This document shows positions 8,777-61,745 of a stretch of 64,000 nt of DNA, in pieces. Position numbers and translations under genes: made by a program. Where the stretch lies: NCBI GenBank assembly GCA_043228905.1, contig JBHGNT010000009.1, positions 6,510,001 to 6,574,000 of the forward strand, read 5' to 3'. Each line of letters begins with the position of its first letter. The first letter of the stretch is position 1. The DNA is from Azolla caroliniana. Lineage: Eukaryota; Plantae; Polypodiophyta. A model generated the notes under the pieces. That model saw nothing but the letters and a program-made list of their open reading frames with translations. It searched no databases and was not told the DNA's origin.

Positions 8777-8798
8777 ATTCCCCCTTGTAAAAAAAAAA

Positions 8799-13035: not shown

Positions 13036-13075
13036 CGTGGCGGGCGTTGTTGGGGTCGTGAGTTGGGGTGGCTTG

Positions 13076-13092: not shown

Positions 13093-13111
13093 AGATGTGA
13101 AATGCTCAAGA

Positions 13112-13354: not shown

Positions 13355-13424
13355 ATATTTGATGTTTAATGTTTATTTTCTAATATTTAATGTAGTGAGA
13401 TAACCACAATGGTCACCTTAGACT

Positions 13425-35421: not shown

Positions 35422-35509
35422 TGTTGAGAAGCAAGCTCAACATGGTATGTGATGCTTATTAGGAAATAAGCTATAGTAGCTATTTAGCTACTTGTGAACA
35501 TAAAGGAGA

Positions 35510-36097
35510 TGTTGGGTATTGACGCTTTCAAAACCTTCTTCACTCGGCCACAACCGAGGAAACACGGATCAATGCAGCAGTAAATAGAAAACACAGAGAG
35601 AGACTCGAATGCACAGGGTTTATCGTGGAAAACCCTAGACGGGAAAAACCACGGGAGTGCAAGACTCCAACTATCAGTATACGCAGTGAATGTACAATGG
35701 CGAGCTGCAAGGCGACGACCTTGAGCTCGCTGTCCTCGCCACAGGCGGCGGTATTACACAGAGGCGTCGACCTCTTCCTTTCTCTCTCTCTCACTCTAAG
35801 TGGAAAACAGAGAAATGAGCAACAACAAAACTGTTTGCCCTAAGTCATATTTATACACATATGACTTTCGGGCTATTTACAAATATAGCCTCAAGGGCCC
35901 TTGGCAAACATATTCACAAATATGTCCCCGCATCCGGATCTCTCTCCGGGGTACATTCGTCATCCGGCTCCGTAGCCGGGGTCTTCATCATCCGGATCCG
36001 TAGCCGGGTACTCTTCATCCTCCGGTTCCGTAACCGCAACCGGGCTTGCCGTCATTCATCTCCGGACATCCCATCCGGAGGGACCGAAATCCAAACA
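35510..36097 (-). repeat. 3' LTR of Copia-D (588 bp)
   Basis: Direct repeat of 40212-40774 with ~3 substitutions and a 25-bp indel. Confidence 0.95.
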
Positions 36098-36107
36098 AAC
36101 TCCCCCT

Positions 36108-39100: not shown

Positions 39101-40180
39101 CATCTCCTATGCCGGCAATCCGGCACGTACCTTCATTTCCCATCCGAACACAGCCATGCTCACCGACTGTGTAGGATGAGAAGTATCTTCTTTCCGGGGT
39201 CAGGTGGAACGACGCTCCGGAATCGACCACCCAGGTAGTCTCATCGCCGGCAATGTTTAGTTCACCTTCTTCGGTGATGAGCATGATCTCCTCTTCACTT
39301 GCCGCGAGTGCCGTCGTTCCTTTCCGGTCCTGCCCTCGCCGATCCGAACCATTCCGGTCCGTGGCTCCCCGGTAAGCACCGTTCCGTTCCGAAGACTTCT
39401 TCGAATCGGTGTCGTCGGCTCCGTTGTCTTTTCGGTAATGCCGACAATTCTTTCGGAAGTGCCCGGCTTCCCACAGTGGAAGCATGTGGGCCTTCCTCTT
39501 GACTGCGACCGGGTCCCCGACTTCTCCCGTCTTTGCGGACTCCGGTTCCGTTGTCTTCCCCGATCCGATTCGGTAAGCAGCATCTTCGGATCGGAGGCCG
39601 GTTCTTTATCTCTCCGACGCGCTTCTTCGTTCAAAATGCTTGTCTTTACCGTTTGTAGGGACAAGTTATCTTCGGTGCAGGAGGAGCTGAGAGTCACCAC
39701 CAAGTTCTCCCAGCTTTCCGGCAATGTACGCATCAGGATGATGGCTTGCATTGCATCCTCCAACGGGAACTTGATCGCCGCAAGCTGGTTCACGAATCCC
39801 ATGAACGTGCTTACGTGTTCCACCATACTCTCGCCGTCCCGGTACTTGAGGTTCACTATCTTCCTCATCAGGGAGGTCCGGTTCAACACATTCTTCCTCT
39901 CGTAGAGGCCCGACAGCTTCCGCCACATCTCATATGCGTTGGTGTCGTTCGCCACATGTTGTAGAACGCTCACGTCGACGTATTGCCGAATGGTTGCAAC
40001 GGCTTTCCGGTTCAGAAGCCTCCATTCCGTCTCAAGTGCCCCCTTGGGTATTTCCGACCTGTCGATCGGTTCATACAGGTCCCGAACAATGAGCAGATCC
40101 TCCATCTTTATCTTCCAGTCGGCGTAGTTCTGCGCAATCAGCACCATCATCCCCGGCTGCCCGCTGTTGCCGCCTTCCAT
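36108..40180 (-). CDS. Copia-D gag-pol polyprotein with a single frameshift at ~39470
   Basis: Gag ORF from ATG 40180. The knuckle CFHCGKPG|HFRKNC is split between frames. A 1125-aa ORF carries WVVDSGAS, integrase, YVDD RT and RNase H. Confidence 0.93.
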
Positions 40181-40211
40181 TTTCTGCACTGCAGTCGCTC
40201 TGATACCAGAT

Positions 40212-40774
40212 TGTTGGGTATTGACGCTTTCGAAACCTTCTTCTCTCGGCCACAACCGAGGAAACACGGATCAATGCAGCAGTAAATAGAAAACACAGAG
40301 AGAGACTCGAATGCACAGGGTTTATCGTGGAAAACCCTAGACGGGAAAAACCACGGGAGTGCAAGACTCCAACTATCAGTATACGCAGTGAATGTACAAT
40401 GGCGAGCTGCAAGGCGACGACCTTGAGCTCGCTGTCCTCGCCACAGGCGGCGGTATTACACAGAGGCGTCGACCTCTTCCTTTCTCTCTCTCTCACTCTA
40501 AATGGAAAACAGAGAAATGAGCAACAACAAAACTGTTTGCCCTAAGTCATATTTATACACATATGACTTTCGGGCTATTTACAAATATAGCCTCAAGGGC
40601 CCTTGGCAAACATATTCACAAATATGTCCCCGCATCCGGATCTCTCTCCGGGGTACATTCGTCATCCGGCTCCGTAGCCGGGGTCTTCATCATCCGGATC
40701 CGTAGCCGGGTACTCTTCATCCTTGCCGTCATTCATCTCCGGACATCCCATCCGGAGGGACCGAAATCCAAACA
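40212..40774 (-). repeat. 5' LTR of Copia-D (563 bp)
   Basis: TG...CA, adjacent to the PBS. Confidence 0.95.
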
Positions 40775-41579
40775 GGAGAAACAGCTAATTAGCTATTGAC
40801 AACTAATTAGCTACTGACAGCTATTTAGCGACTGACAGCTAATTAGCTACAGGCAGCTAATTAGCTGCATACGTAAGTAACTTATTACTTAGGTAAAAAA
40901 GTAAGAGAGTAAGTAAGTAAGAAATATACAGGAAGTAGAACTCTGAGAGGGAGAGTGAGGATAGAGAGAAAGAACTCAGAGAGTGAGAGCAGAAGAGAGA
41001 AACAGACGAGAGCAAGTAGAGCTCTGTGCGTAATGAAATAGAAGAAGTTTTTGGCTGCTACAGAGGTAAGTCTCCTTCCCCCTTCCCTTCTGTATTTGAG
41101 CACCAAACGATCTAGCACACCACGATCCGCCGCACACATAAGAAGAGCCCAAGTGCCTTCTTCACGTTTTCTTAACATGGTATCAGAGCGAGGTTGCTCA
41201 TAAAGAAGAGTACAGAAGTGCATAGAACTGAGAAAGGTATTTCCCTGGTTGCTGATCTGAATCAGAAAGTTACTTGTTGAAGTAATTGTAACAGAAACCC
41301 TAGTTTGGAAGAGATAATGGCTGCAAAGAATGCGGGCCAAATAGTTACAGAGAAACTAGATAAAAACAATTTCCCGACGTGGAAATTTAGAATGACGAAT
41401 TTCCTAATGGGGAAAGGATACTGGGATTACATTGAAGGAGACCTAGAAGAGGCTCCGGAGATCCCAGAAGAAAATGCCACAGTAGCACAGATTAAAGCCT
41501 TCAAAGATTGGAATCAAGGGGCAAGGAAGGTAATGCATTGGCTCTCACTTAGCATCTCAGATTCGATGCTTGGGCACAT

Positions 41580-44500
41580 CATAGTTCTAGCCATACGTCT
41601 CAAATGTGTCATACTCATACGTGAATATTCGTATCATACTCATACGTGAAATGGCTCCAAGTATGATTGGAATCCATTCGTCTATATTTATATTTATATT
41701 TATTTTTATTACTCTAAAAAAAATTTTAAAATATGAAAAATAAAAAATAATCAAGATTTTTATAAACAAAAATCAAGACCATAATTTCATTGAAAACTAA
41801 CAAAATAGCATCCAAAATTCTAAACATGAACCAAAATTTATCCAAAGTTCAAACTTCAAACATGAACATTAACCTAGAAAGTAGCTCTAAATTCATAGTA
41901 CTAATAGTTAATCTCATCTCTCTACTCTTGAGGTGCATTGTCAATGTTAACATCTTGCCCATCATCATCTTCTTCTTCGAAATCCTCATTAACCATAGTT
42001 GCATGTTGTCTTTGCAATACCAAAAGCCTATCATCATCTTCTTCTTTATTAATCATATCCAAAGTCACTTCTATACGGCATGAATCTCTTTGTTTGACTT
42101 TCTTTAATAGACGATGGTTTGTATGCAAGTATACCAGCTTCTCTATATGATCATGACTCAACCTATTTCTCCTCTTAGTGTGTATCAATGAAAAGGTACT
42201 CCAATTTCTCTCACATGGAGATGCACAAGTACCTTGAGAAAGCACTCGTATCGCAAGTTTACTTAAATTTGGGGTTTCTTCTCCAAATAATTCCCACCAC
42301 TTAACACCTTCTTTCATTCTAGTAGGATCATTTGAAGGTGGAAGTTGAAAAATACCCTTCTCTTTAGTTTTATAAGCATGATACTCATCTAATAAATTAC
42401 CTTGCATCTTAATGTCACCATTTGCATATCGCATAATGGTGTCTATCCAACTAGCATTCACCACATTATCAAAAACTTGAGAATTTTCCCACCAAATTGG
42501 ATGTAAGAGATATCCAATTGCATGTAATGGTGAATGTAACATTTTGCATCTATCCATGCATAATCCTCTAATTTCATCAAGCAACATGTTATTGATTCCT
42601 TGCATTTTATTTATTTCTTCTACCATTCGTCGTGTACATTCATATATCAACCCCGTTGTTGCACCTTCTCTATCCGCCAATCGCAACACTTTTAAAATTG
42701 GTGAGCATATTTCCACTATCATCTTTACATTTGACCAAAAGGAAGCATTCAATATTATCGAAACTACTTCTTCTGCTTGTTGCGTTTTAGATCCCTTCCA
42801 TTGGCACCATTCTTCGCTAACTACCATTCTTCTTAAACCACTATACACTCTATCATCCAACAAATTTGATAGCAGAATGAAACTATAAGCAAACCTTGTA
42901 GTAGAAGGCTTCAACAATTCCTTTTTACTAAACTTGCGAAACATTGCAAGCACATATAGCTTTCTTGTGATGAACGTAGTAACCTTCATACCTAATCTCA
43001 AAGCATCATTAACCCAAGCACATTTTCCTATATCCTCAAACAACAAATCAAGGCAATGACATGTGCATCGAGTAAAAAATATCATGGGCCACTCTTTCTC
43101 TATCATATGTCCCGCTGCCACACAATTTGATGCATTATCCATGCATACTTGCATAACATTTGTTGGGCCAATTTCAAGAATGGTAGCTTTTAGAATATTA
43201 AAGATATACTCCCCCGTTTTACATTCTCCACTTGTATCCACAGACCTCAAAAACACTGAACCAAACATTGATGAAGCTAGAACATTAATTATTGGCCTAT
43301 TTCTAGTATATGACCAACCATCACTGACTATAGTGCATCCATATATTTTCCATTTCTCTTTGATGCATGAAAGTTTATCTTCAACAATTTTTACTTCTTC
43401 ATCTAAGTGCCTCTTTCCCAATTGGAAAGAACTTGGTGGCTTATATGACGGACCAGCCTTTGCAATTGCTTGAACCATATCATGAAAAAAGGAACTATCA
43501 ACCTTAAGATGTGGAATATCCTCTACAAAAAAGAATCTTCTCACTGATTCATCGGCATTTTTATTCAAACTTTTTTGCCAAGAGATTTGTAGGGATCCAC
43601 TAGAATTCTCAATTGTCCTCTTCTTACATGATGAAGATGACATGTCAACTACAGATGCACAAGTAGATGGCACAACATTGGCATTAGATGTACTTATATC
43701 GACATTATTCTCACTTTCTATAATAGAATTTTCATTAGCATTAATATTTTCATGAGCATCCACATCCGATACTAATTTTTGTATCTCATCTTTTATTGCT
43801 CCAGTGACTTTGCGGCATTTATCCACACCTTGTCCTTTTAGCCCCAAAAGATGGGCTTTAATTCGGTGTGGACCACCAGCAAACACGTGTTTGCAATATT
43901 TGCATTCATTTATATGCATTCCTTTATTGTTTCTCTTCACGACAGTAATGTGGTCCCATAAAAAGCTCTTTTGTTTGCCCATACTACAATCACATTAATT
44001 TATAAATCAACAATTTAGGAAGTGAGTTAACAAATCTACAATCACGTTGATATTAATATATAAAAGAACATTAGAAAACTACAATTACATTGATTTAATA
44101 AAACTACAATCCTTTTGAGGTGCTTTTCCTTCTCAGAGTTTATTAAGTTCTATTCGATTTCGGGCAACATTGCCTCAATATAATTCATTTCTATGTCACT
44201 TTCTATGTTACTTTCTATCTTATGTTTCAAATTTCAATATCAAAAATTTCTATGGCTAAAAGCCAAAAGGTTCAATGGTGATTATCTCTCTCCAAAGGCC
44301 AAATTTCAATTAGATGAAAACATGAACAACTAGTTAAATTCTCTACATTATTACGAATCCTATATGGCCAAGAGGTATTACTTTTCAGCACACTATGACC
44401 TTCTCAATCCCATGAAAGACAAATCACAAACCTAAGACAAAGATGCATCATGCAATTTGTTGTTTCTCTTCCTCTTTCAATTATTCGATTAAAAAAACCA

Positions 44501-45306
44501 AAAAAATGGGTAGTGAAGGGGCGGGGAAGGGCGACATGTCTAGTTTTCTTATCCCTTGCATCCATTATTTGAGAAAAACATGCATTTGTAGTATGTACAA
44601 CCTGAAATTAAAGCTGATTTGCACATACAAACATCCATAATTCCATAATCTCATTTAGTGTTTTATGAGTTCTTGGGTTTTTGTTAAGATTTTGAGGGTT
44701 TTTTCCCAAATTTTCGTTTTAGGGTTTGATCTCATGCTCATTGAATGATTTAACAATTGTATAGACATTAGAAATACATGAATTCAGGATAACAATTTAC
44801 CTTTACGCTTCCAAGAAGAATCAAACGAGACAAATCGGTAAGGCGGCAAGTTGTAGGCGGCACGCGGGTGAGCGGGAATCAGGATTCGGGATTCGGGATT
44901 CGGGATTTGGGAATCAGAAATTAGAAATTAGAAATCAGCCTGTTCGTTTTGTCCTTCATAGAAATCTGATTTTCACTCAAAGCTCTCGATTCTCTTCACG
45001 ATTTTCTCCTCACAGAAATCTGATTTTCACTCAAAGCTCTCGATTCTCTACGATCAACTGAGGACTCTCGATTCTCAGACTCTCAAACTCTCAAACTCTC
45101 AGAGACTCAGACTCATCACTCGTCACTGCTCAGTGCTCAGTGCTCACAACGCAACGACGCATCAGAAAAAACCCCCCAAAAAAACACCCAAAAAACCCCC
45201 CCCAAAAAAAAAAAAACCCAAACGAATATCGCGTATCATACGCGTACGTTTGCAAACGTTCGTGTACGTCCAATAAATTGGACGTACGCGAATATTAGGA
45301 ACTATG
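41580..45306 (-). mobile_element. Autonomous-looking hAT DNA transposon (3.73 kb)
   Basis: TIR CATAGTTC / GAACTATG and a perfect 8-bp TSD GGGCACAT (41572-41579 / 45307-45314) within Copia-C gag. Confidence 0.96.
41922..43982 (-). CDS. hAT transposase (BED zinc finger, DUF659-type catalytic region, hAT dimerisation domain), 686 aa, intact
   Basis: CKYC...HL...C BED finger; IVSDGWS, CMDNAS, CTCHCLDL, WWELFG, ASPCERNWSTF, RNRL. Confidence 0.95.
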   Translation of the reverse strand: MGKQKSFLWDHITVVKRNNKGMHINECKYCKHVFAGGPHRIKAHLLGLKGQGVDKCRKVTGAIKDEIQKLVSDVDAHENINANENSIIESENNVDISTSNANVVPSTCASVVDMSSSSCKKRTIENSSGSLQISWQKSLNKNADESVRRFFFVEDIPHLKVDSSFFHDMVQAIAKAGPSYKPPSSFQLGKRHLDEEVKIVEDKLSCIKEKWKIYGCTIVSDGWSYTRNRPIINVLASSMFGSVFLRSVDTSGECKTGEYIFNILKATILEIGPTNVMQVCMDNASNCVAAGHMIEKEWPMIFFTRCTCHCLDLLFEDIGKCAWVNDALRLGMKVTTFITRKLYVLAMFRKFSKKELLKPSTTRFAYSFILLSNLLDDRVYSGLRRMVVSEEWCQWKGSKTQQAEEVVSIILNASFWSNVKMIVEICSPILKVLRLADREGATTGLIYECTRRMVEEINKMQGINNMLLDEIRGLCMDRCKMLHSPLHAIGYLLHPIWWENSQVFDNVVNASWIDTIMRYANGDIKMQGNLLDEYHAYKTKEKGIFQLPPSNDPTRMKEGVKWWELFGEETPNLSKLAIRVLSQGTCASPCERNWSTFSLIHTKRRNRLSHDHIEKLVYLHTNHRLLKKVKQRDSCRIEVTLDMINKEEDDDRLLVLQRQHATMVNEDFEEEDDDGQDVNIDNAPQE

Positions 45307-48300
45307 GGGCACATACATGATGTTATGCTCCCAAAAGAAGCTTGGGACAATTTGGTAAAACTGTTTGCAGTAAACACAAAAGCTAGAAAGCTACAGTTGA
45401 AGACTGAGCTAAATACCTTAGAAAAAGGTAAGATGTCAATAAATGAGTATGCTTTGAAAATAAAGAGCATATGTGAATCACTTGCTTCAATCAATGTAAA
45501 GATAGAAGATGATGATAAGGTAGAAATATGCTTGAGAGGCTTAGGACCTCAATACAAAAGCTTTAAAACCTCTATGCTTACAAGGGATAGTATCCCAAGT
45601 TTTCCAGATCTGGTTTCAATGCTTGTAGTAGAAGAAAGGAATCAGATGGATGATGTAAATAAAGGAAATCTTGAGAATGAGGGGCAAGCCCTATATAATA
45701 GTGCTGGAAGAGGCCGAGGAAGAGGCCATGGAAGATTTGTCTCAGCAAGAACCCACAATAATGGTTATCAAGGAAGAGGACAACAAACCATTAGAGGAAG
45801 AAACAACAACAGAGGCAGGGGGAGCAACCAAGGTAAAGGTAAGCAAACATATGTAAATGATGATGGTTGTTGGTATTGTGGAAAACTAGGCCACACACAG
45901 GCTGAATGTTACAAGAAGCAAAATGATGAGCAAAGAGGAAAGAGACAGCAGAATAATTATGCCCAAACTAGTGAAGATTGTGAAAAAGATGGTGCATTTG
46001 TGGTACAACATGAGATAGCAGCAGTGGCTAAAAGCTCACAAAAATGTAATGAAGAGTTTACATGGTATGTAGACTCGGGGGCATCTAACCATATGACTGG
46101 ACATGCAAACTGGTTTGAAAGGTTAAGAGAACCAGAGATTCCTGGCTATGTACAAACGGGTGATAATAGTACTCACCAAATAGAATATGTTGGAGATATC
46201 CCATTGTGGGAAGAAAAAGGAAAGACTAAGTCTATGTTGAATGTAATGCATGTTCCAAATCTTGCTAAGAATCTGATTTCTGTTGGACAGATAGTAGAGC
46301 AAGGTATGCAAGTAAAGTTTAAGCAAAGTGGATGCTATATAGAAAAGAATGGGAAGCTCATTGCAAAAGGAAAACGACAAGGAAGAATGTTTATTTTGGA
46401 TGTTGACATGCCTAGACAGATTTCAGCTATGTTTGCAAAAGGAATGAGTGTAGTCTCAGATGTGGAAATGTGGCATAAAAGGATTGGCCACATAAGTATG
46501 CAAACCCTAAAGAATATGTTGAGAAAAGATGTAGTGGCTGGACTGCCAAAACTGAAAAATTGTGAAATGGGAAAGATATGTGAAGCATGTCAATATGGAA
46601 AGCAAAATAGGTTGCCATTCCCTCATGAAAGACATGTAAGTAAAAATCTGTTGGATTTGGTACATACGGATGTATGGGGACCAACTAAGAATGCATCTAT
46701 CTGTGGCTGCAGATTTTATGTAACTTTTATTGATGATTGCTCAAGCAAAACATGGGTGTACTTCATGAAAGAGAAAAGTGAAGTGTTTGAATGTTTTCGT
46801 TAAGTTTAAATGCATGGTAGAAAAGCAGGCAGGTACAAGAATAAAATGTTTAAGGTCTGATGGAGGAGGAGAGTATTTCTCCAATGAATTTTCTGATTTT
46901 CTATGCAATCAGGGAATAAGAAGACAGTTCACATGTAGATATACTCCACAACAAAATGGAGTTGCTGAGAGGAAAAACAGAACATTGGTGAACATTGCAA
47001 GGGCTTTGATGACAGAGAAGAATATGCCATTGTACTATTGGGCAGAAGCTGTAAATACAACAAATTATATTCTAAATAGATGTATAACATCGGGAGTACA
47101 TGAAGCAACTCCTGAAGAGTGTTTCTATGGAAGGAAACCTAGCTTAGAACACTTAAAAGTGTTTGGATGCCTTGTATATGTACATGTGCCTGTAGAAGTA
47201 AGAAGTAAGCTGGATCCAAAAGCAGAAAAATGTATTTTTGTTGGCTATTCAAAAGAACAAAAAGGGTATAGATGCTATAACCCTGTAACAAAGAAGATTG
47301 TGACAAGTAGGGATGTAATCGTTGATGAGTTAGCTAGTTGGTACAGTCCAAAACAGAATCCAGAGACTGATGAAGATAGTGAGATTGAAGACAGAGACAA
47401 ATCTGAAAATGTAGAAGACTGCCACAGAGATGGAAGCAAGGTTGGACAGCAAGGTCCAACATCAACAGAATGTTCTAGACCATCAAAAAGCTCAGATGGT
47501 AAATCTGATTCGAATTCTTGGAGTGGAAAAAGTGGAGGACACAAAAAATGTGATGATAAAAAAGGAAAACAGAAAATGCCAGAGTATGAAATGTTGGATG
47601 ACTTGTCTAAAAACATGGAAGATGAGGATTTAGATCTGTCATTGGATGATCTTCTTGGTATAAGAGGATTGAAAATCCCTGGTATGGAAAAAGCATTGAA
47701 GGATGCAAATCAGAAACTGAGAAGATCAGATAGAGAGAAAAAAACTGTTGAAAGATTTGGTTATGAAACATATATGGCTATGCATTATGCATATATGTCT
47801 AAGGTGGTACAGATCCTTGATCCAAGTAGTTTTGATGAGGCTAAAACTGAGAAGAAATGGGTGGATGCAATGCGAGAAGAGATTGATGCATTGGCTGAAA
47901 ACAGAACATGGGATTTGGTGAAGTTACCAAAAGGAAAAAATGTGGTAGGTTGCAAATGGGTCTACAAGACAAAGCATGATTCCAGTGGGAATGTAAGTAG
48001 ACATAAAGCAAGATTGGTTGCAAAGGGATATGCCCAAATGCAAGGAATTGATTATGATGAGACATTTGCACCGGTTGCAAAGATGGCAACATTGAGGACA
48101 TTACTGGCTGTAGGTGCAGCCAGAAGATGGTTTCTTCATTATATGGATGTAAACAATGCCTTCTTACATGGTAACTTGGAAGAAGAAGTGTATATGTGTC
48201 AACCACCAGGTTTTGAAGATAGGAAGCATCTAGATTATGTATGTAAGCTGAAAAAGGTTCTCTATGGATTGAAACAGGCACCAAGAACATGGCACAGAGA

Positions 48301-49420
48301 ACTTTCAGATTATCTGAAAAAACTTGACTTCAAAATGTCAAAGGCTGATTCATCATTGTATGTTAAAAGGAAAGATGATTGTATTGCTGTGATTCTGATT
48401 TATGTTGATGATCTCATCATTGGAGGTGATTTCATGGATGAAATAAGTAAGTTGAAAAGAAATTTGGAAATGAAATTTCATATGAAAGATTTGGGAGATT
48501 TGAGATATTTTTTGGGTATTGAAATCATCAGATCTGAAAGTGGTATATTTGTGTTGCAAAGACAATATGCAACAACTATGTTGAAAAAGTATGGTATGCT
48601 TGGATGCAAACCTATTGGAGTACCACTAGATAAAAACTGCAAATTGAGGGCTGATTTGGGAGCCAAAATAGAAGATGTAAACATGTACAGGTCTATGGTG
48701 GGAAACCTTATTTATTTGACCATAACAAGACCTGATTTGAGTTATGCAGTTGGATTAGTCAGCCAATTTATGCAATAGCCAACAAAGCCGCATTTGGATT
48801 GCATTAGAAGAATTCTGAGGTATGTAAAAGGTACTCAGAACTATGGATTGTTTTACAGGGCTGGTTTTGACATAAATCTGGAAGGATATACAGATGTTGA
48901 TGGGGTTGGAAGCCAAGCAGATAGAAGATCCACAAGTGGATATATATTTACATTGGGAAGTGCAGGTATTTCATGGAGTAGCAAGAAACAAGCTATTGTT
49001 GCATTGTCTAGTACTGAAGCTGAGTACAGAGGAGCTGCCATAGCCACTTGTGAAGAGGTATGGATCAGAAGATTGCTTGCTGATTTGGGAGAGTATATAG
49101 ATGGTACTGTCACAATTTGGTGTGACAACATGAGCAGCATTCAGCTTGCAAAAAACCCAGTGTTCCATGCAAGAACAAAGCACATTGAAGTGCATTATCA
49201 CTTTGTTAGAGAAAAAGTGATTGAAGGAGAAGTTGATCTGGTGTGTGTGAATACAAATCAGCAGGTTGCTAATATTCTCACAAAGGGATTGAGTGTGGAA
49301 AAGCATACACAATTTTGGAACATGATGGGAGTTGTAGACACTGATATGATGGCTGAAAAGCATCATGGAAAAGAAGTGGTAGATAACCCCAAGAAAGGAT
49401 AAGTTGAGCTTGAGGGGGAG

Positions 49421-49888
49421 TGTTGAGAAGCAAGCTCAACATGGTATGTGATGCTTATTAGGAAATAAGATATAGTAGCTATTTAGCTACTTGTGAACAT
49501 AAAGGAGAAACGGTTAATTAGCTACTGACAGCTATTTAGCGACTGACAGCTAATTAGCTACAGGCAGCTAATTAGCTGCATACGTAAGTAACTTATTACT
49601 TAGGTAAAAAAGTAAGAGAGTAAGTAAGTAAGAAATATACAGGAAGTAGAACTCTGAGAGGGAGAGTGAGGATAGAGAGAAAGAACTCAGAGAGTGAGAG
49701 CAGAAGAGAGAAACAGACGAGAGCAAGTAGAGCTCTGCGCGTAATGAAATAGAAGAAGTTTTTGGCTGCTACAGAGGTAAGTCTCCTTCCCCCTTCCCTT
49801 CTGTGTTTGAGCACCAAACGATCTAGCACACCACGATCCGCCGCGCACATAAGAAGAGCCCAAGTGCCTTCTTCACATTTTCTTAACA
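49421..49888 (+). repeat. 3' LTR of Copia-C (468 bp)
   Basis: Matches 35422-35509 plus 40780-41177 with ~6-7 substitutions and one fewer 18-bp unit. Confidence 0.95.
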
Positions 49889-51272: not shown

Positions 51273-52675
51273 TGTCGCGAAAATACGACAAGGATACGTG
51301 AACTTGAGGTAGGACCCCAGGGCCTCCGACCAAAGGATATCAAATTCGTATGTTTATATTAAACAATTAATGGAAATGAGAAAGATTGACAAATTTCATT
51401 AACAAAGGGAAAGAAAGATTACAATCTATCCCAAGATTGGGATTACAAAAGTTTAAGCTTACGAAGATTAATAGAATAATAGATTAGAAGAAACAGAGAT
51501 ATGGATTCGATAGGAAAAATTAGGATTTCCTTCTCTAAGATAATTAGGCTTAGCATTTTTTCCCCAAGGAATGGGAGAGAGAAGAAGAGAATGGGCCCAA
51601 AAAAACGAAAAAGAAGAAGAAACTAGAGAAAAAAAAGTGGTACATATATCGAGTTCCCTCTTGATCATCGCCTCCCATGTTCCTTTGCATGCATCCCCTT
51701 TTTGTTGCATGGCCTTTATTTTTAGTTGCATGGCCTCCTTTTTTAGTTGCTTGGCCTTTATTTTTAGTTGCTTGGCCTTTTACTTTTAGTTGCATGGTCT
51801 CTACCTTTAGTTGCATGCCTTCCACATGACCTTTCCTTTATGCATGGCCTCCCTCTTTTCTTTTCATGCCTTTCCCATGACCTTTACTTTATTTTACTTT
51901 AATTTTTCGCATGATCCTATCATCCATCCATCTCGACCGTCATCCATCCGATTCGTTCGGTCCGCGTTCGGTTTTCATTCTGGCACTGTTCGATTGTTGG
52001 TTCTGTCCTGTTGCTGATTGTCGTCTCCGTCCGATTGTCGGTTGCCGGTTCCGTCGTCATCCGGTTCTAGTTCCCAACTTCATCGCCGGCTCTGTCCGGT
52101 TTCTAGTCCGTCGTCGTCCGGTCGCTGGTTTTGTCTGGTTGCCGATTGTCGGTTTTGTTCGATTGGTTGCTTGTTGCCAGTTCCGTCGTCATCCGGTTCC
52201 AATTCCCAACTTCATCACCGGCTCTATCCAGTTTCCAATTTCCAGTTTCCGGCTCCATCCGGTTTTCGGTTCCCAGTTTTGTTGCCAGTTCTATCCAGTC
52301 ATCAGCTCCATCCGGTTTCTAGTTCCCGGTTTTGTTGCCGGTTCCTTAGCCACATTTGTCCATGTAAACAAATTGGTCCAAGTCCAACCATTCCTTTTGT
52401 GCTCTCAACACATAGATAAAAACTAATAGTTCTCAATCTGCTTATATAGATGGATCCTAAAGTTTCCTATCTATGTGGGATATTTCATAATTCTATTTTC
52501 GTTATCTTCTAAAACTTCATAGTCACATAACTTAATACTTATTTATCCGTTTTATGTGTAGTAAAATGTGTTATGAAGCTCTTGAAGACATCTATCTTTC
52601 TATATCAAGCCACCAATGTAATCTAAAATAATTATTTCATTATTTTTTACATAGTGTGTAAAGAATCACACGACA
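51273..52675 (-). repeat. 3' LTR of Gypsy-G
   Basis: Direct repeat of 60322-61745 with internal 21-bp tandem units (ttttagttgcatggcct...) and CCGGTT-rich units. Confidence 0.93.
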
Positions 52676-52739
52676 TTCGCCCCCACCAAACCTGCACATC
52701 CACCGGTATGTGCCAATTTTGGTGAGGCTCCACTTCTGA

Positions 52740-55700
52740 TTACTTTACTTTTTCATCGATGCCCAAGATAGAATCGTCGAAAGCTTCGAATCCGATTTCT
52801 ATTCTATCTCTTCTCTTGAAGATCTTGATTCTTTTCCCAGTAATTGGCAAGGTAAGTGGTGTACCATCCAGTTCTACTAAACAATATGTTGCGTTATCTT
52901 CCACTTTCTTCACCACATGGTCCAAACCATCGTTGTGAAAATTTTCGAGCCAATCTCCTTCAACGATTGTCTAGGCTATTGTCATAGACCAGCACCCAAT
53001 CTCCTTCAACGATTTTCCTCAGACGATGTCGATGTCGTTTTTCGAAGTCTTTCTTGTTCTTCAACCTTGCATTTTTGAGCCGCTCTTTAGCCTCATCTAT
53101 ATCTTCCAACTTCCGCTCTAACTGTCGAATCCTCAATGCTAGAAGATCTTCTCTACTTATCTCATCTTGCCATGGCAATGCAAACCATGAAACAATACTT
53201 TGTTCTACTGGCATTATCGGCTTTTGTCCGAATATGATCTCTGTCGGCATGTATCCTGTCACCGTACTGTGAGTAGTCCTATCAGCCCATAGTGCAAATG
53301 GCAATAGTCGCGGGCATTCTCCTATTTTCCCATTGCAAGCTTTCACTAGAGCCTTTACAATCGGTCCATGTCCACATTCCACTTTCCCATTCGGTTCCGG
53401 ATTATACGTCGTGGTAAGAGATAATTTGATTCCCATCCTCGAGAAAAATTCTCTAGCTTCATTGGCGTCTAGCTCGCCTCTATCAGCCACTATCTTGCCG
53501 ATGCATCCATATCTGCAAATAACATCTTCAAGAAGGAATCTGCATATTAATGATGTCTCCTTAGTTCTCAATGCTCGCCCTTCAACTTGATTGGTAAGAT
53601 CCTCTCTCGCAAGCACAAGATACTTCATCTACCATCGCTCCATTGGCATCATTACAATGTCCACCATCCACTTGTAATGCATAGCCAACGGGTAAGTCAG
53701 ATGAAGTTCATCTCGATGGCGAACATTCGAAAACATCTGACATTCCTTACATGTTTCCACATAAGCTGCTACCTCTTTGTAGATGCCCGACCACCAATAT
53801 TTCTCCTTAAGCTTCGCGAACATAGCCCATATTCCTCAATGGCCTGCAAAAACACTATCATGAAATTCGGACATTAGTTTTCGTCATTCCTCTAGCTTGC
53901 AGACAACTCTCATCGGAGTCCCATTCTTCTTTTTTGCATGCCTCCAAAGAGCTCCATCCTTAAAGAAATACTTGTACGCCTTCTTCCGAATTCGGTGGAA
54001 GTCTTCCATTGATCATGATTCATCTTTTTGGAGAGAACTCAAGTATTTCCCGATCTCCACGAATTCACCTTCGTAGTCCTCTTCTATGAAAGTAGTTAGC
54101 ACCCGAGCGTAGGAACTTGTAAAGAAATCCAAGCCAACATCCTCTTCATCAGAATGTCGATCTTCCTCTCCATCGTATCTTGCTCGTGATAACATGTCTA
54201 CAACGACATTACACTTCCCAGCTACATGACGGATCTCCAGGTTGAGTGATTTGATATATGCAATCCAACGCTACATGGCAATATCTGGTGTATTACAACT
54301 AGATATCATACCTAAAATTGGCAGGCTATCTATCTCAATCATGACTTCTGCGCCAATAAGGTAGTCACGATCAGACTTGATCACCGAAACGATTCTCCAT
54401 AGCTCCCTCTTCACTTGGGCACACCTTCTTTGCCTATCACTTAACACTTTCGCGCCAAACCGAATTGCATATTGGTTGCAATCTTTGTCTTCTTGGTTGA
54501 TAACCCATCTGATTCCGATTGGACTAGTATCCACAGTCACGAAAATGGGCTTCCTATCTGAATAGTCTGCCTTCCGTAATGCAGGTGCCTCCATCAATAA
54601 TTTCTTCAGCCTTCGGATGGCGATAGTATGCTCGCTCGTCCATTCGAACCGTCGCTTTTTCTTTAGTAGACCGTATAATTGCTCAACAATGTGAGCGTAG
54701 TGTGGAATCCAAATATGATAAAACGTGTATGCTCCAAGGAACCTTTGAACCTCCATTTGGGTTACACATTCTTCTTTCATGTCCTGGATCACATTCACCT
54801 GGGATGGCAAAGGCTTCTGACCATATGCTCCACACAAGTGGCCTACCACAAAGATCTCTGGTTGCCCGAATGCATATTTTTCTCCCAAAAATGTCAAATT
54901 CGCATCTTCGAGCCTTTGGAGCACCTTCTCGCAATCTTTCATATGATCCACGACGAACTTTCTTCATCCATCCTTATCTTTCGATTCACCTGAACATCCT
55001 TTTATCGGAATGTCATCCAAGAATGGCATCGTGATGCCTGGGATGCAATCCTTCAAGACCTTGTTCATGGCATTTACCATATGAGCCACCGAATTCGTTG
55101 CACCTTGAGGTAAGGTACACATCCGCACCAACCCGATCGGTGTCCGCATTGTTGTTATGTCTCTACTATCGACAACCAACTGAAACTGGTCATAGCCCGA
55201 GTAGAGATCACCAATGGAATAGATCGATCTTCCCGTGAAGGCTTCGGCAAATTCATCCACGCTTGGACCAATTCCAGAATTTCGGATTGTCACCTTGTTG
55301 ACAGGTTGGAGATCTTGGATGAATCGCAACGATCCATTCTTCTTCGGCACTGTGAACCACCTATTAGAATAGGGAGCGTTCGACGGTTCCAAAATTCCCA
55401 TATTCACCTTCTCCTTTAAGAGCTCGATCAGCTTCGGTAGGTGTGCTCTCGGAACCGGTATCGGTTTCAAATTCCAAGGCACATGCAGCACCGTGAAGAT
55501 CGCCATCGATTCTACCGTCCTTGGATTAGCACATCCGATTTCTTGTGGGACAAAATGTGAAAGCCTTCCCATGTCTTTCAAGCATTCTGCGGAACATTCT
55601 CTCCTCTTCAGGAAAGAGGAAATCCTCCCTTCCAACTTGTAGCTTTCCCTTCGTCTCTTCAGTGAAGACGTGACCAATGGTATTTGGATTCCTTAAGCTT

Positions 55701-56700
55701 GGATCTTTTGCAACTTCCTTCATCTTTTGCCAGCTCTCTTCCGGTAGCGGTACTGCAACTGGCTTGATCTTCCTATCCATGTTTTTATATTTTGTGTTGA
55801 CTTCGGTTTCCTCCATCAAGATGCCTCAATGATATTCATCGATGATAACGTACATGTTGATGGATTTAACCGAAATCACATGTTGATAGTGAGGATAGCT
55901 CAAGTCCACAACTTCCTGGATTTCGCTGATGGTGTCGTTAAATGAGGCTTCCTCCAGAATATGAGACACGAATTCTTCTTCTTCGATTATGATTTCTTCT
56001 TTCAGCACCTCCTTGAAGTCTTGTATCCAACACTTGCCCTTCTTGTTGAGTAGTCTTAGTTTGCATGCACCGCTAGGTGTGACACATGTTGCTTCTCCTT
56101 GCAATCCACGCACTCTACTTCCTTGTGGGGACTTATGATTGATCGGACTATTTGTGCCCCATGCTTCAATAGTCCGCTTTAAAAATCCAAGGATTCGCCT
56201 CCAAGGCTATCTCGGTTCCTTTCATGATTAGCTCGCACCGTTAGGAATTGAACAGATCTTTTACTATCAAGACTCTTCACGCGCGCGAAGGCTGCTCTGT
56301 TATGAAACACCTTGGTCTCCATCCGGGACGATGTTATATACGGTTGTCCTAGGATGACAGGATGCGAAGCCGAGTCTTGCACGAAGAAGTGTTGATCAAT
56401 CTCCACATCCCCGATCGTGACTTTAACATTGGGGCAATCTTCGTACAAGTCCTCCGTAGTCTTCGTCGTCGCTCAAATCTTCCATCCGTGGTTTGTATTA
56501 ATCGGCCATCTTCCTTTCTTGTAGAACTCGGTCGACATGAGGTTGATCTCCGAGCCATGGTCAATCAAGGCTACCACGGTCTCTTTCTTCTCCCTGATCT
56601 TCACCGGCGTCTCCGTTGTCGCTCTTGCCCAATGAAGTTGAGAGTAAAGGCTATCCGCCACCACTTCTTCTTCCTCCTCCTCCTCTTCTGATCTTGCCAT
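52740..56700 (-). pseudogene. Gypsy-G pol remnant
   Basis: ALIDHGSEINLM protease; YSNRWFTVPKKNGSLRFIQDL, DLYSGYDQF, LPQGATNS, FLDD RT; VTVDTSP RNase H; YNPEPNGKVE integrase; stops and frameshifts. Confidence 0.9.
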
Positions 56701-56746
56701 ATTTATGGCACTTGTTTTTACCTCGTCTTCATCATATTGTTGCTGC

Positions 56747-58656
56747 TATCACAGATACACCAAGCGCGGACTAAGACGGAGCACGGATGATGAGGCTACG
56801 ACGGAGCGATGACGGAATGACACAAGAGCATAAAGATAGATATGAAGATTAAGGAGAGAAGATGGGCGAGACGAGAACACTAGATTGATATGTCCATGAC
56901 TGGCGTTGTTCACCTTGAATTCACTCAACTATTTATACTAAGTGGCATGCATACCTGTTGCACGCATGTGATACAATAGAGCATGTAGGCAGTAGGTACG
57001 AATGCATGTGCCAAGTGTTAATAATACAAGGGAGAAATTATGCACATGATCCTAGCTAAAACCTACAATGAGGAAGTATATACATGATTATATGCTAGAT
57101 GTGTGGTTAACACATAACACTCGATTATAACATGGTCATGTCAAGAGTTCGTATCTTGACATTATCCCCCCTCCAACAATGCCTTCCCAAATCGTTTGTC
57201 GACTTAAGGGGATATTGTTGATGAAAATCTTAGATCACCTCCAAAGTATTTTGTAAATCCTAGACAAGGAGTAACCCTTCCACAAGACGAGGTATTTAAC
57301 ACCAACGGGCATGAGCGACCATGTGTGGTCCTCGCCTAGAACTGGAACACAATTATCAACGGGTGTGAGCGACCATGTGCAGTCCTCACGGGGAGCATGA
57401 ACACCAAGGGGCATGAGTAACCATGTGTGGTCCTTGCCGGGAACTAGAACGGTCCTCGCTGAGAGTTGGAACACGAACAGCAACGGGCGTGAGCAACCAT
57501 GTTGTCCTCACCGAGAAATGGAACACGAACAAGTGAGCAACCATGTGGCCCTCACCGGGAACAGGAACACGAATGGGAGTAATCAACCATGTGTGGTCCT
57601 CACCGAGATCTGGAACACGAACAATAGTCGGAGTGAGCGGCCATGTGCGGTGCTCACCGGAGACTGGAACAGGAACGAGAGTGAGCGACCATGCAGCCCT
57701 CACTGGGAACAGGAACATGAACGGGAGTGAGCGGCCATGTGCGGCTCTCACCGGGAACAAGAACACGAATAGGAGTGAGCGACCATGCGGCCCTCACCGG
57801 GAACAGGAACACGAACGTGTGTGAGCGACCATGTGGCCCTCACTGGGAACTGGAACATGAACGGGCGTGACCGACCATGCGGCCCTCACCGGGAACTGGA
57901 ACATGAACACCAACGGGAGTGAGCGGCCTTGTGCGGATCTCACCGGGAACTAGAACATGAACACCAACGAGAGTGAGCGGCCTTGTGCAACCCTCATCGG
58001 GAACTGGAACACGAACACCAACAGGAGTGAGCGGCCTTGTGCGGCCCTCATCGGGAACTAGAACATGAACACGAACGGGAAAGAAACTAAAAAATAGAGA
58101 CAATGATGAGGAGAAACTAAAAAATAGAGACAATGAAGCGATGTTGATGATGGTACGGTGACGATGGTAACTCTAGAAGCAAGGGCGATGACGGAGACGG
58201 GTGATGCTTCTAGTTGGAAGGTGAACAAACTGTCACAGACACACCAAGCACGGACTAAGACGGAGCACGGATGATGAGGCTACGACGGAGCGATGACGGA
58301 ATGACACAAGAGCATAAAGATAGAGATGAAGATTAAGGAGAGAAGATGGGCGAAACGAGAACACTAGATTGATATGTCCATGACTGGCGTTGTTCACCTT
58401 GAATTCCTTCAAGGTGAACTCAACTATTTATACTAAGTGGCATGCATACCTGTTGCACGCATGTGATACAATTGAGCATGTAGGCAGTAGGTACGCATGC
58501 ATGTGCCAAGTGTTAATAATACAAGGGAGAAATTATGCACATGATCCTAGCTAAAACCTACAATGAGGAAGTATATACATGATTATATGCTAAATGTGTG
58601 GTTAACACATAACACTCGATTATAACATGGTCATGTCAAGAGTTCGAATCTTGACA
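56747..58656 (-). mobile_element. Non-autonomous LTR retroelement (TRIM/LARD-like, chromovirus-derived), 1.91 kb
   Basis: LTRs 56747-57161 and 58231-58656 (~9 substitutions, 11-bp indel), TSD GCTGC (56742-56746 / 58657-58661), PPT 57162-57174. No gag or pol. Confidence 0.94.
57301..58080. repeat. Internal tandem array, ~15 units of ~43-60 bp
   Basis: Consensus GGGAGTGAGCGGCC(A/T)TGTGCGGCCCTCACCGGGAACTGGAACACGAAC(ACCAAC). Confidence 0.9.
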
Positions 58657-58659
58657 GCT

Positions 58660-60270
58660 GCTTCTACTTAATAAGGTCCACGATAGTGTCATGGAACTCC
58701 TTCTTCGCAATCCTCTCAAAGTAAGGTCGACATGACTGTCTAAAACCTTCTCCTCAAGGACCTTCCATAAATCAATTGTTTGTTCTACGTCCGACCTTAG
58801 CTTGTAAGTCGGTGCCGCTCATTCTTTTCCTTTCTTCATTGATTCTTTGACTTCCATTCGAGCAAGTTGGCTTGATCCATCGAGCTTCATGCTTGTTTCT
58901 CCAACCTCTTTTCATGGCATAGGTGGGACTTTCCCTTCTTTCCCTTTGTTCCTCGTGTTGGGACACTTTGATGTGCCATCGTCTTCACCAGTTCTTTTCC
59001 TCTTCTCTTCAACAAGAGCTTCATAGTTGTTGCACACTACCTCCGCAAAGCTTGTGTTATCATCGACTGGATCTAACCAACCGGTAACTCGTCGCACATT
59101 CCGATCAGAAAGTTTTAAATCCTCTGAATCGATTTTGCCTTTTCTCTCTCACTCGAAGACCATCGGCTAAAACCCAGCTTCTGGCTTGATTGTCTTTAGA
59201 TTCTCTTTTCCAACTCGTATCCCGGCCGATGCGGCATAATGCAGTGCTTCCACATGCCTTGCATCTTCCTCTTCTACAATCTTTTATAGCCCGCCTCTTC
59301 CAAAGTTCACTCGTAGTGGCTTCCGGGTCTCGCTCGAATGGATCATGTTGCCATCCAAATAGACAACATTCTTGCGAATCGCGTCTTGCAAGTCAGCACA
59401 TTCCCTTAGTGAGTGCTCGAAGTTGTCGCAACACACATCTATACGCTTCTTTTCCCTTGGGCCCGCGTCGACCTAAGTTGGCCAGCGATACTGCTTCAAA
59501 TTTCCTAGAGAGCTCTTCGATTATAGAGTCCTCCATCGCTTTCTTGTCGAAATTGTTGGTTGGCTTGTTAGGCCCAACCGTCACAGGTGCCTTCCTCCTC
59601 CATGTTTGTAGATTCTCCATATCAGTTTCCTCTTGCCATTGTCGAGGCTTATTAAGACGGCTACAAGCCTTCGTCACCGTCATCCAGTACGCTACCAAGC
59701 CATTTGGTTGCGTTTCGTCCTCCAAAAAACAACCCAATTCTCGCCGGTCTTTTGTATCCACTGCCTTCAGGAATAGCAGGACTTTATCTCCATTGAGAAC
59801 TCGTTGATCAACACTCGGAAGTCAGTTGTACTTCTGGTTGAATTCCGCATATACTCCAGATGCACACAGATTCGTTCCTTTCTTCTCGATCCAAATCATT
59901 AGCGTATGCCGGGTCATCCGTGATGCGTCTTCAAGCATGTATTCAGCAAGAAGCCCCTTCTCAAACTCCGCCCAAGTTACGTGCTCGTTTTGGATCTCTA
60001 TGACACGCTCGCGGATTCCTAGTTCCACCACACGCTTGAAACTAGAAATTTGTTTCAAACCATGGACATCCTTCTGTTGCATCTCGTTCTGATAGGTAGC
60101 AAGAAAATCCGTGATATTCTTGCCACCAAATCGTCCAAATATCTCCATCGTTCGATCAACAGCTTTGTCGATTAAAGCCTCTCGATCTCTCGCCTTCAAC
60201 ATGTATTCCACAATGGACACCATGCCTTTCGTTAATTCCTCTCCTTGAGTTCCGCTTGTTGAAGCCATCA
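58660..60270 (-). pseudogene. Gypsy-G gag remnant
   Basis: MMASTSG...FGRFGGKNITDFL...TWAEFEKGLLAEY; decayed Cys/His knuckle near 59420; located between the PBS and the protease. Confidence 0.75.
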
Positions 60271-60299
60271 TCGCACTTGATATCCTCTTGCTGCCTCGT

Positions 60300-60317
60300 T
60301 TCACGTCGGGTTCACCA
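60300..60317 (-). promoter_or_regulatory. PBS complementary to tRNA-Trp
   Basis: Plus strand TTCACGTCGGGTTCACCA matches the 3' end of plant cytosolic tRNA-Trp as I recall it; 4 nt from the LTR. Confidence 0.85.
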
Positions 60318-60321
60318 AAGA

Positions 60322-61745
60322 TGTCGCGAAAATACAACATGGATACGTGAACTTGAGGCAGGACCTCGGGGCCTCCGACCAGAGGATATCAAATTCGTAT
60401 GTTTATATTAAACAATTAATGGAAATGAGAAAGATTGACAAATTTCATTAACAAAGGGAAAGAAAGATTACAATCTATCCCAAGATTGGGATTACAAAAG
60501 TTTAAGCTTACGGAGATTAATAGAATAATAGATTAGAAGAAACAGAGATATGGATTCGATAGGAAAAATTAGGATTTCCTTCTCTAAGATAATTAGACTT
60601 AGCGTTTTTTTCCCAAGGAATGGGAGAGAGAAGAAGAGAATGCCCCCCCCCCCCCCCAAAAAAAAAAACTAGAGAAAAAAAGTGGTACATATATTGAGTT
60701 GCCTCTTGATCATCGCCTCCCATGTTCCTTTGCATGTGTCCCCTTTTTGTTGCATGGCCTCCATTTTTAGTTGTGCGGCCTTTATTTTTAGTTGCATGGC
60801 CTCCTTTTTTAGTTGCTTGGCCTTTTACTTTTAGTTGCATGGCCTCCTTTTTTAGTTGCTTCATCTTTACTTTTAGTTGCATGCTTTCTACATGATCTTT
60901 CCTTTATGCATGGCCTCCCTCTTTTCTTTTCATGCCTTTCCCATGACCTTTACTTTATTTTACTTTAATTCGTCGCATGATCCTATCATCCGTCCATCTC
61001 GACCGTCGCCCATCCGATCCATCCAGTCCGCGTCTGGTTTCCATTCCGTCACCGTTCAGTTGTCGATTCTGTCCGGTTGCCGATTACCGGCTCCGTCCGA
61101 TTACCGGTTGCCGGCTCCCTCCGATTGGTCGCCGGTTGTCGGTTCCGTCGTCATCCGGTTCCGGTTCCCAACTTCATCGCTGGCTCCGTCTGGTTTCTAG
61201 TCCGTCGTTGTTCGATCGCCGATTTTGTCTGGTTGCCGATTGCCGGTTCCGTCGTCATCTGGTTCCAATTCCCAACTTCATCACCGACTCCGTCCGGTTT
61301 CCCGTTTTCAGTTTCCGGCTCCATCCGATTTCCGGTTCCCAGTTTTGTTGTCGGTTCTATCCAGTCGCCAACTCCATCTGGTTTCCGGTTCCCGGTTTTG
61401 TTGTCAGTGCCTTAGCCACATTTGTCCATGTAGACAAATTGGTCCAAGTCCAACCATTCCTTTTGTGCTCTCAACCCATAGATAAAAACTAATAGTTCTC
61501 AATCTACTTATATAAATGGATCCTAAAGTTTCCTATCTATGTATGTGGGATATTTCATAATTCTATTTTCGTTATCTTCTAAAACTTCATATTCACATAA
61601 CTTAATACTTATTTATCCATTTTATGTGTAGTAAAATGCATTATGAAGCTCTTGAAGACATCTATCTTTCTATATCAAGCCACCAATGTAATCTAAAATA
61701 ATTATTTCATTATTTTTTACATAGTGTGTGAAGAATCACATGAGA
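60322..61745 (-). repeat. 5' LTR of Gypsy-G
   Basis: Direct repeat of 51273-52675; terminal cgaca mutated to tgaga. Confidence 0.92.

What the first reader, a model, noticed from the sequence alone, without database searches (positions are those of the whole stretch)
56747..58656. Non-coding mini LTR element with an apparent Tf1-style 11-nt self-priming site instead of a tRNA PBS
Seen: two nt inside the 5' LTR the minus strand reads TTGTTCACCTT (58228-58218), with no TGG tRNA complement. Its exact complement AAGGTGAACAA lies in the LTR at 58400-58390, starting 32 nt downstream of a TATAAATA box (58432-58425), where a TSS is expected. Established: fission-yeast Tf1 and related chromoviruses prime reverse transcription by annealing the first 11 nt of their RNA to the PBS. 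Inference: this is a self-priming, non-autonomous parasite of a Tcn1-like chromovirus. It has its own TSD and ~98% identical LTRs, so it probably moved in this reduced form. Plant TRIMs normally carry tRNA PBSs.
Basis: partly seen in the sequence, partly recalled or inferred. Interest (0 to 1): 0.85.

Follow-up and report, generated by a model that had tools for sequence, protein, structure and literature searches.

The report
Self-priming gene-less retrotransposon in fern
A 1.9-kb jumping element with no genes, likely from a fern, lacks the usual tRNA landing signal and instead has a primer site that pairs with 11 letters of its own end repeat, and related copies change both sides together, so it likely starts copying itself from its own RNA, a trick shown in yeast Tf1 and predicted for some gene-carrying plant elements.

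Summary
The 1,910-bp element has 97.8% identical LTRs (plus an 11-nt indel), a GCAGC target-site duplication, a PPT and no TGG after the 5' LTR. The 11-mer there is the exact complement of an LTR 11-mer 32 nt after TATA (2 of 20,000 shuffles).

Relatives from short-read assemblies add a compensatory test. A second subfamily changes 4 of 11 letters on both sides and stays paired. Of 22 scorable junctions, 17 pair fully, 1 pairs 10/11 and 4 are mismatched, in mosaic-looking contigs. A further 18-bp R/U5 duplex extends the helix. No relative shows gag or pol.

Self-priming by a non-autonomous family is therefore likely (about 0.8). The start site is unmapped and cleavage untested.

The helper is not identified. 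A Tf1/sushi-type chromovirus with a class I chromodomain is the insertion site of one relative, so that lineage is a plausible but unlinked helper; 'Tcn1' is not shown.

The mechanism is known (Tf1; predicted for plant Tcn1 and TAR). This scan has already noted self-priming gene-less elements in other genomes. New here are the likely fern host, a natural primer swap, and a U3 arm that also pairs with the primer.

The parts
58657..58661 (-). Target-site duplication, upstream copy (GCAGC)
   Evidence: one contig of run X1 joins 56744 to 58660, skipping 1,915 nt = element plus one TSD (table 5)
58231..58656 (-). 5' LTR, 426 nt, TG...CA
58425..58432 (-). TATA box (TATAAATA); promoter function inferred
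   Evidence: same motif 32 nt before the 11-mer in 22 of 22 junctions that have it
58408..58419 (-). U3 arm that can pair with 58403-58392 (12-bp hairpin covering 9 nt of the 11-mer); role inferred
   Evidence: -18.6 kcal/mol; 0 of 500 shuffles as stable; the other subfamily's version is weaker, 5-93 of 500
58390..58400 (-). Predicted self-primer, first 11 nt of the predicted transcript
   Evidence: start site not mapped
58369..58388 (-). R segment (+13 to +32) predicted to pair with the U5 end and the GT spacer (2 + 16 bp)
58229..58247 (-). U5 end plus GT spacer, partner of the R segment
   Evidence: these columns were fixed by the search pattern
58218..58228 (-). Primer-binding site complementary to the LTR 11-mer; no TGG
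58173..58213 (-). Predicted 9-bp leader hairpin just after the PBS
   Evidence: (88.9% of cells paired, no two-sided change)
57298..58080 (-). Internal tandem array, about 16 units of 46-54 nt, non-coding
   Evidence: 3 ORFs of 100 aa or more inside the element have no Pfam hit
57162..57174 (-). Polypurine tract abutting the 3' LTR
   Evidence: purine tract ending ATAA before the LTR start in relatives
56747..57161 (-). 3' LTR, 415 nt; lacks 11 nt of the U3 arm, so TATA (56937-56930) to 11-mer (56916-56906) is 21 nt; ends TA
56742..56746 (-). Target-site duplication, downstream copy (GCAGC)
51273..61743 (-). Host: decayed Ty3/gypsy element with a TGG-type PBS, into which the small element inserted (context, not the helper)

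Best explanation
This is a gene-less LTR retrotransposon of a multi-copy family, likely from a fern, that likely primes its own reverse transcription in the Tf1 manner: its transcript is predicted to start at 58400, fold its first 11 nt onto the primer-binding site, and be cut there by an RNase H borrowed from a helper that is not identified, most likely a Tf1/sushi-type chromovirus. Shown: anatomy, absence of genes, complementarity, fixed 32-nt TATA spacing, two-sided change of four pairs between subfamilies. Predicted by folding: a 29-bp duplex (11 + 2 + 16 bp) closing R-U5. Inferred from Tf1: start site, cleavage between nt 11 and 12, extension through U5 and R, PPT-primed plus strand, and copying of the primer into the progeny PBS, which would explain how four pairs changed together. 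Odds on the helper: Tf1/sushi-type (Tcn1-like) about 0.55, TAR-like copia about 0.15, other or unknown about 0.3.
For: (1) 11/11 match, 2 of 20,000 shuffles. (2) Taking the 11-mer at TATA+32 without looking at pairing, 17 of 22 junctions pair fully (14 all Watson-Crick, 3 with 1-2 G-U), although TATA-to-LTR-end distance ranges 84-279 nt; mean pairs 10.2 at offset 0 against 0.9-4.9 at offsets of 1-4. (3) Two haplotypes differ at 4 positions on both sides; alignment A1 (18 distinct rows) shows 17 cells with two-sided change against 5.4 in shuffles, 0 of 500; loose ends of run X1 show both halves of the second haplotype (39 and 14 contigs). (4) The predicted RNA from +1 folds at -52.1 kcal/mol, z -4.7, 0 of 200 shuffles; mean primer-PBS pair probability 0.92-0.97 in the 13 matched junctions folded, 0.45 in the one mismatched junction folded. 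(5) The R/U5 duplex keeps near-invariant G-U pairs (17 and 18 of 18 rows), which suits RNA pairing better than DNA-level copying. (6) TSD, empty site, PPT and gene-less interiors. (7) A chromovirus of the fungal/vertebrate clade (support 100/99) with a class I chromodomain matches the insertion site of relative L021.
Against: The start site is not mapped: poly(A) reads from a related organism run through U3 and show no pile of ends. Four of 22 junctions (L001, L008 twice, L022; 2 of 18 distinct rows in A1) join one subfamily's 11-mer to the other's PBS (7/11, -4.0 against about -14 kcal/mol); these contigs look like collapsed mosaics but real replicating hybrids are not excluded. The four-position change is one historical event, so the shuffle counts are not probabilities. 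The third duplex of the Tf1 'pretzel' is not above chance. No host tRNA set was available. No autonomous element with these LTR ends was found.
Confidence: 0.8

Rival explanations
1. The pairing is a structural RNA signal (packaging, dimerisation, 5' end protection), and priming uses something else, such as a tRNA fragment, a small RNA or the helper's RNA in trans.
For: The 11-bp helix is part of a longer 29-bp duplex; mismatched junctions exist in 4 of 22 cases; half-tRNA priming is known in plant copia lineages (PMC6317226).
Against: The helix ends 2 nt after the LTR, where a primer must end, and begins at a fixed TATA distance. Two PBS haplotypes differing at 4 of 11 letters would need two outside primers, each also copied into the LTR. 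Rfam found no tRNA or 5S match at gathering level in the element or 3 relatives (one weak 21-bit tRNA hit in L019, below the cut-off of 29).
Confidence: 0.1
2. The two-sided change is a DNA-level by-product: template switching between the arms of an inverted repeat copied one arm onto the other, with no role in priming.
For: The region is rich in inverted repeats; the window subfamily has a perfect 12-bp U3/primer palindrome, and the 3' LTR has lost 11 nt of it.
Against: The neighbouring 16-bp duplex keeps G-U pairs and a mismatch that DNA-level copying would erase. This reading leaves the element with no primer at all.
Confidence: 0.05
3. The element self-primes but its helper is a TAR-like Ty1/copia element or another fern lineage, not a Tf1/sushi or Tcn1 chromovirus.
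For: 89% of 203 TAR elements are predicted self-priming with 5-bp TSDs (PMC6317226 supplement row); Tcn1 was not amplified from 26 ferns and horsetails (PMC2864245 section 7); this scan has notes of self-priming in copia and BEL/Pao lineages (unchecked).
Against: A Tf1/sushi-type chromovirus flanks L021, so that lineage appears to be present. The extended R/U5 duplex resembles part of the Tf1/sushi 'pretzel'.
Confidence: 0.3

Closest known systems
Tf1/Tf2 (Schizosaccharomyces pombe), Tj1, Tosmo and the Tf1/sushi group of self-primed Ty3/gypsy chromoviruses
   Same: 11-nt self-primer complementary to a PBS next to the 5' LTR (PMC7175516, PMC4600332, passages); a further duplex between LTR sequence after the primer and sequence just upstream of the PBS (bioRxiv 10.1101/2022.12.06.519325, passages).
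   Different: No genes; plant host; third duplex not found; a U3 arm pairs with the primer; start site and cleavage not shown here.
Plant Tcn1 chromoviruses (mosses, Selaginella) and TAR copia elements (Neumann et al. 2019, PMC6317226)
   Same: Predicted self-priming by the same criterion (10 nt or more, starting 0-5 nt after the LTR); 83% of 1,500 Tcn1 and 89% of 203 TAR; 5-bp TSD.
   Different: Those are autonomous 5-11 kb elements. The word 'fern' does not occur in that paper's main text. This element cannot be placed in either lineage without RT.
Non-autonomous plant LTR elements: TRIMs, LARDs and the medium-sized families of sugar beet (PMC13570524; PMC4717578; PMC6934838)
   Same: LTRs, PPT, TSD, no coding capacity, mosaic and tandem forms.
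   Different: Described PBSs are tRNA-derived (six motifs in 115 beet families, though that screen required a tRNA PBS). At 1.9 kb with 0.42-kb LTRs it lies between TRIM (under 1 kb) and LARD (over 4 kb).
Helenus, Ajax and Cassandra (TRIMs with tRNA- or 5S-derived LTRs; PMC10886601)
   Same: Non-autonomous LTR elements with changing PBS types.
   Different: No tRNA- or 5S-like segment in these LTRs; that paper found no LTR/PBS complementarity in Helenus.

Membership tests
Non-autonomous LTR retrotransposon | Two LTRs, TSD, PPT | tested here: met
Non-autonomous LTR retrotransposon | No gag/pol in the family | tested here: met
   3 internal ORFs of the window and 17 ORFs of relatives have no significant Pfam hit; tblastn hits lie only in flanks
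Tf1-type self-priming (works like) | PBS complementary to about 11 nt of the LTR, conserved by compensatory change | tested here: met
Tf1-type self-priming (works like) | The 11 nt are the 5' end of the transcript | tested here: inconclusive
   32 nt after TATA in 22 of 22, but RNA reads show no start
Tf1-type self-priming (works like) | RNase H cut between nt 11 and 12 | not testable with these tools
   feature from PMC7175516 passage
Tf1/sushi 'pretzel' | Duplex between LTR and sequence upstream of the PBS | tested here: met
   18 bp; about -21 to -23 kcal/mol against -12 to -14 for the best other 20-mer in 4 rows
Tf1/sushi 'pretzel' | Duplex between LTR and sequence downstream of the PBS | tested here: not met
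   no conserved partner; 1 of 19 rows under 5% of shuffles
Tcn1 chromovirus (as helper or parent) | RT/IN in the Tcn1 clade with class I chromodomain, sharing LTR ends with this family | tested here: inconclusive
   element has no RT; a Tf1/sushi-type, class I chromodomain element flanks L021, but its LTR and PBS were not seen and no labelled Tcn1 reference was in the tree
TAR copia (as helper or parent) | RT in the TAR lineage sharing LTR ends | not testable with these tools
   no genome held
TRIM | Under 1 kb, repeats of 100-250 bp | tested here: not met
   1,910 bp, LTRs 415-426 bp; definition from PMC6934838 passage
TRIM | tRNA-complementary PBS | tested here: not met
   no TGG after the LTR; host tRNA fragments could not be screened
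LARD | Over 4 kb | tested here: not met
   definition from PMC13570524 passage

The most novel reading that the evidence does not exclude
A Tf1/sushi-type self-priming system operates in ferns and supports a large gene-less parasite family. In it, U3 plus primer is swapped as one module at first-strand transfer and the PBS is rewritten from the primer, so primer identity changes in one step. The U3 arm is a built-in catch that masks the 3' copy of the primer and read-through transcripts.
Probability: 0.2. Interest if true: 0.65.

Novelty: new variant of a known kind. Interest (0 to 1): 0.45.

Why it matters
Self-priming is proven in fission yeast and only predicted by sequence match in plants. 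This family gives comparative evidence that the pairing is real in a plant element: four pairs change on both sides at a fixed distance from TATA. Its two natural primer alleles make it possible to test whether the PBS is rewritten from the primer. It also shows a kind of non-autonomous element that screens requiring a tRNA PBS would miss, and hints that Tf1/sushi-type chromoviruses reach ferns. The mechanism itself is known, so the gain is moderate.

Tried and rejected
No whole genome is held, so copy number and helper could not be sought there.

No RNA holder listed in the run search. Two poly(A) raw-read runs of a related organism laid on the window and on L025 gave 42-124 reads each and no pile of ends; the main read group runs on into U3, so no start site can be read.

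Viral contigs held no copy of the LTR/PBS junction and no relative of a candidate chromovirus pol. The ESM Atlas did not hold P0205.

The gypsy elements with a visible PBS in the window (8534-13356 and the host 51273-61743) have TGG-type sites and lack a chromodomain hit, so they were rejected as helpers. The remnant at 30187-33409 shows no chromodomain at the end of its integrase frame (by eye).

L014 was dropped as a chance match to the search pattern. Eight of 30 junctions had no TATA in the sequence held and were not scored; two of them (L004, L017) still show the 11-nt match. Alignment A1 used 19 of the 22 scored junctions (left out: L013 with a deleted R-U5, and two duplicate L008 units).

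The third 'pretzel' duplex was not supported. The U3 hairpin as a strong block is only partly supported: adding 40 nt of U3 lowers primer-PBS pairing to 0.47-0.72 in the window subfamily but leaves 0.61-0.97 in the other. Rfam gave nothing at gathering level. The bacterial promoter scan is not relevant to a plant promoter.

Full report
Observation. The element lies on the minus strand at 58656-56747 inside a decayed gypsy element. Its LTRs are 426 and 415 nt, identical at 406 of 415 aligned letters, with one 11-nt indel. GCAGC is duplicated at both ends, and one contig of run X1 shows the empty site, skipping exactly 1,915 nt. A purine tract abuts the 3' LTR. The 1,069-nt interior is a short leader, about 16 repeats of 46-54 nt and a tail; its 3 ORFs of 100 aa or more have no Pfam hit. 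Two letters after the 5' LTR stands TTGTTCACCTT, with no TGG. Its exact complement begins 32 nt after the first T of TATAAATA. Such a match arose in 2 of 20,000 LTR shuffles. That a plant start site lies about 30 nt after TATA, on a purine after a pyrimidine (here C then A), is recalled, not from a call.

Host. No genome was held. The best named relatives of the window's hAT transposase are from the fern Ceratopteris richardii, so the host is likely a fern.

Family. A pattern for the LTR end found 28 matches in 25 metagenome contigs; L014 was a chance hit and was dropped. Ten assembled complete interiors are 1.14-1.46 kb. None of 17 ORFs tested has a significant Pfam hit, and tblastn with the window's gag and pol proteins hits only flanking DNA. 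The family therefore appears to move without genes. These are short-read contigs; several show a PPT before the '5' LTR or two different LTRs, so they are collapsed mosaics, not single insertions.

Compensatory test. I took the 11 letters at TATA+32, without regard to pairing, and the 11 letters at LTR end+2. Of 30 junctions, 22 had a TATA. Fourteen pair 11/11 by Watson-Crick pairs, 3 pair fully with one or two G-U, 1 pairs 10/11 and 4 pair 7/11. There are two alleles: the window type, and a commoner type (AAGGGATTCAA with TTGAATCCCTT) that differs at four adjacent positions on both sides. TATA-to-primer spacing is constant while TATA-to-LTR-end varies from 84 to 279 nt. On alignment A1 (19 of the 22 junctions, 18 distinct) 17 cells show two-sided change against 5.4 in shuffles, 0 of 500. 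This is one historical event inherited by several rows, so the figure is not a probability. Loose ends in an independent run show both halves of the second allele.

Results against. The four mismatched junctions (L001, L008 twice, L022) join the commoner primer and its U3 to the window type's R-U5 and PBS. Two readings fit. An assembler would collapse a four-letter PBS difference flanked by identical sequence but not a primer difference attached to a different U3. Alternatively they are real hybrids from first-strand transfer between subfamilies, as self-priming predicts, with the join between +9 and about +23. If they proved to be young, multi-copy elements they would count against the model.

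RNA structure. The predicted RNA from +1 folds into a long duplex: 11 bp primer/PBS, 2 bp, then 16 bp between R (+17 to +32) and the U5 end; z -4.7, 0 of 200 shuffles. Pair probability of the 11-bp helix is 0.92-0.97 in 13 matched junctions and 0.45 in one mismatched junction. The second duplex holds near-invariant G-U pairs and one-sided changes, which suits RNA pairing. Its U5 side was fixed by my search pattern; its R side was not. Tf1 needs three duplexes (bioRxiv 10.1101/2022.12.06.519325, passages); the third, downstream of the PBS, is not above chance here. Both subfamilies also carry a U3 arm complementary to their own primer, although their TATA-to-primer segments are only 42-50% alike. 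It is strong in the window type (12 bp, 0 of 500 shuffles) and weak in the other (5-93 of 500). It may mask the 3' copy of the primer, or be a trace of template switching; this is open. The window's 3' LTR has lost 11 nt of this arm, which shortens the TATA spacing to 21 nt, so progeny of this copy would probably be defective (inference).

Start site. Poly(A) reads of a related organism cover R-U5, in one run mostly in the sense direction, but the main group continues into U3 and no pile of ends appears. The start site remains unmapped.

Helper. None of the relatives leads into gag, and viral contigs gave nothing. The DNA into which relative L021 inserted encodes an integrase fragment 89% identical to P0078. 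A full member of that cluster, P0205, has a canonical chromodomain. Its RT-RNase H groups with fungal, protist and vertebrate elements (100/99), apart from seed-plant chromoviruses (26 rows, no labelled Tcn1 reference, window gypsy as a long-branch outgroup). Class I chromodomains mark Tcn1 and some Galahad elements in non-seed plants (PMC3350952, passages). PCR did not recover Tcn1 from 26 ferns and horsetails (PMC2864245, section 7). A Tf1/sushi-type lineage thus seems present and is the likeliest helper, but being an insertion site is no proof of partnership, and TAR copia elements are also predicted to self-prime (PMC6317226, passages and two supplement rows).

Mechanism, with basis. Shown: anatomy, gene loss, complementarity, covariation. 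Predicted: the 29-bp duplex. Inferred from Tf1 (PMC7175516, PMC4600332, PMC5341516, passages): start at 58400, RNase H cut after nt 11, extension through U5 and R, transfer to the 3' end, PPT-primed plus strand, integration with a 5-bp TSD. That the plus strand copies the primer into the new PBS is recalled from retroelement biology; the G-U variants of the PBS show such rewriting is not complete.

Comparison and novelty. Self-priming is established for Tf1 and predicted for 83% of Tcn1 and 89% of TAR elements. Searches for a self-priming non-autonomous plant element listed none; one search matched 580 papers of which 20 were listed, so this is not exhaustive, and most subscription journals are not covered. 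In sugar beet the PBS motifs of 115 non-autonomous families are tRNA-derived, but that screen required a tRNA PBS (PMC13570524, passages). Helenus shows no LTR/PBS pairing (PMC10886601, passages). PMC6934838, PMC4717578 and PMC8282616 were seen as passages. The original Levin papers were not held and were seen only as references. The per-element PBS table of PMC6317226 did not appear among the supplement hits and might show whether these 11-mers occur in Tcn1 or TAR. Earlier notes of this scan describe self-priming gene-less LTR elements in fungi, a ray and a protist (unchecked), so the kind is not unique to this window.

Verdict. Real, likely self-priming (0.8), helper unknown; a new variant of a known kind; interest 0.45.

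Noticed in passing
L021:1387-1659 (+): Integrase fragment of a Tf1/sushi-type chromovirus with a class I chromodomain (cluster of P0078/P0205), on a contig with this likely fern family; Tcn1-like elements were reported as not found in ferns by PCR.
   Followed up: partly
window 56937-56906: The 3' LTR lacks 11 nt of the U3 hairpin arm, shortening TATA-to-primer spacing from 32 to 21 nt.
   Followed up: partly
L007, L011, L021, L025 (PBS): A PBS variant with two changes that still pairs all 11 positions through two G-U pairs where the LTR 11-mer could be read (L021, L025).
   Followed up: partly
L019, L020, L021, L006 (LTR starts): The commoner subfamily's LTR begins about 22 nt earlier than the window type and has a longer terminal inverted repeat with the U5 end; the window type starts at an internal TGTCA.
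   Followed up: no
window 8534-13356 (-): Young gypsy element with 99.6% identical 245-nt LTRs, open gag and pol frames and a TGG-type PBS; no chromodomain hit.
   Followed up: partly
window 35422-49888: Nested copia elements with near-identical LTRs and an intact-looking hAT transposase (41922-43994) between them.
   Followed up: no
window 27639-28348: Three tandem copies of a 234-nt unit, 95% alike.
   Followed up: no
window 57298-58080: The 46-54 nt internal array is kept in the relatives whose interior was seen; a role as packaging or Gag-binding signal is possible but untested.
   Followed up: no
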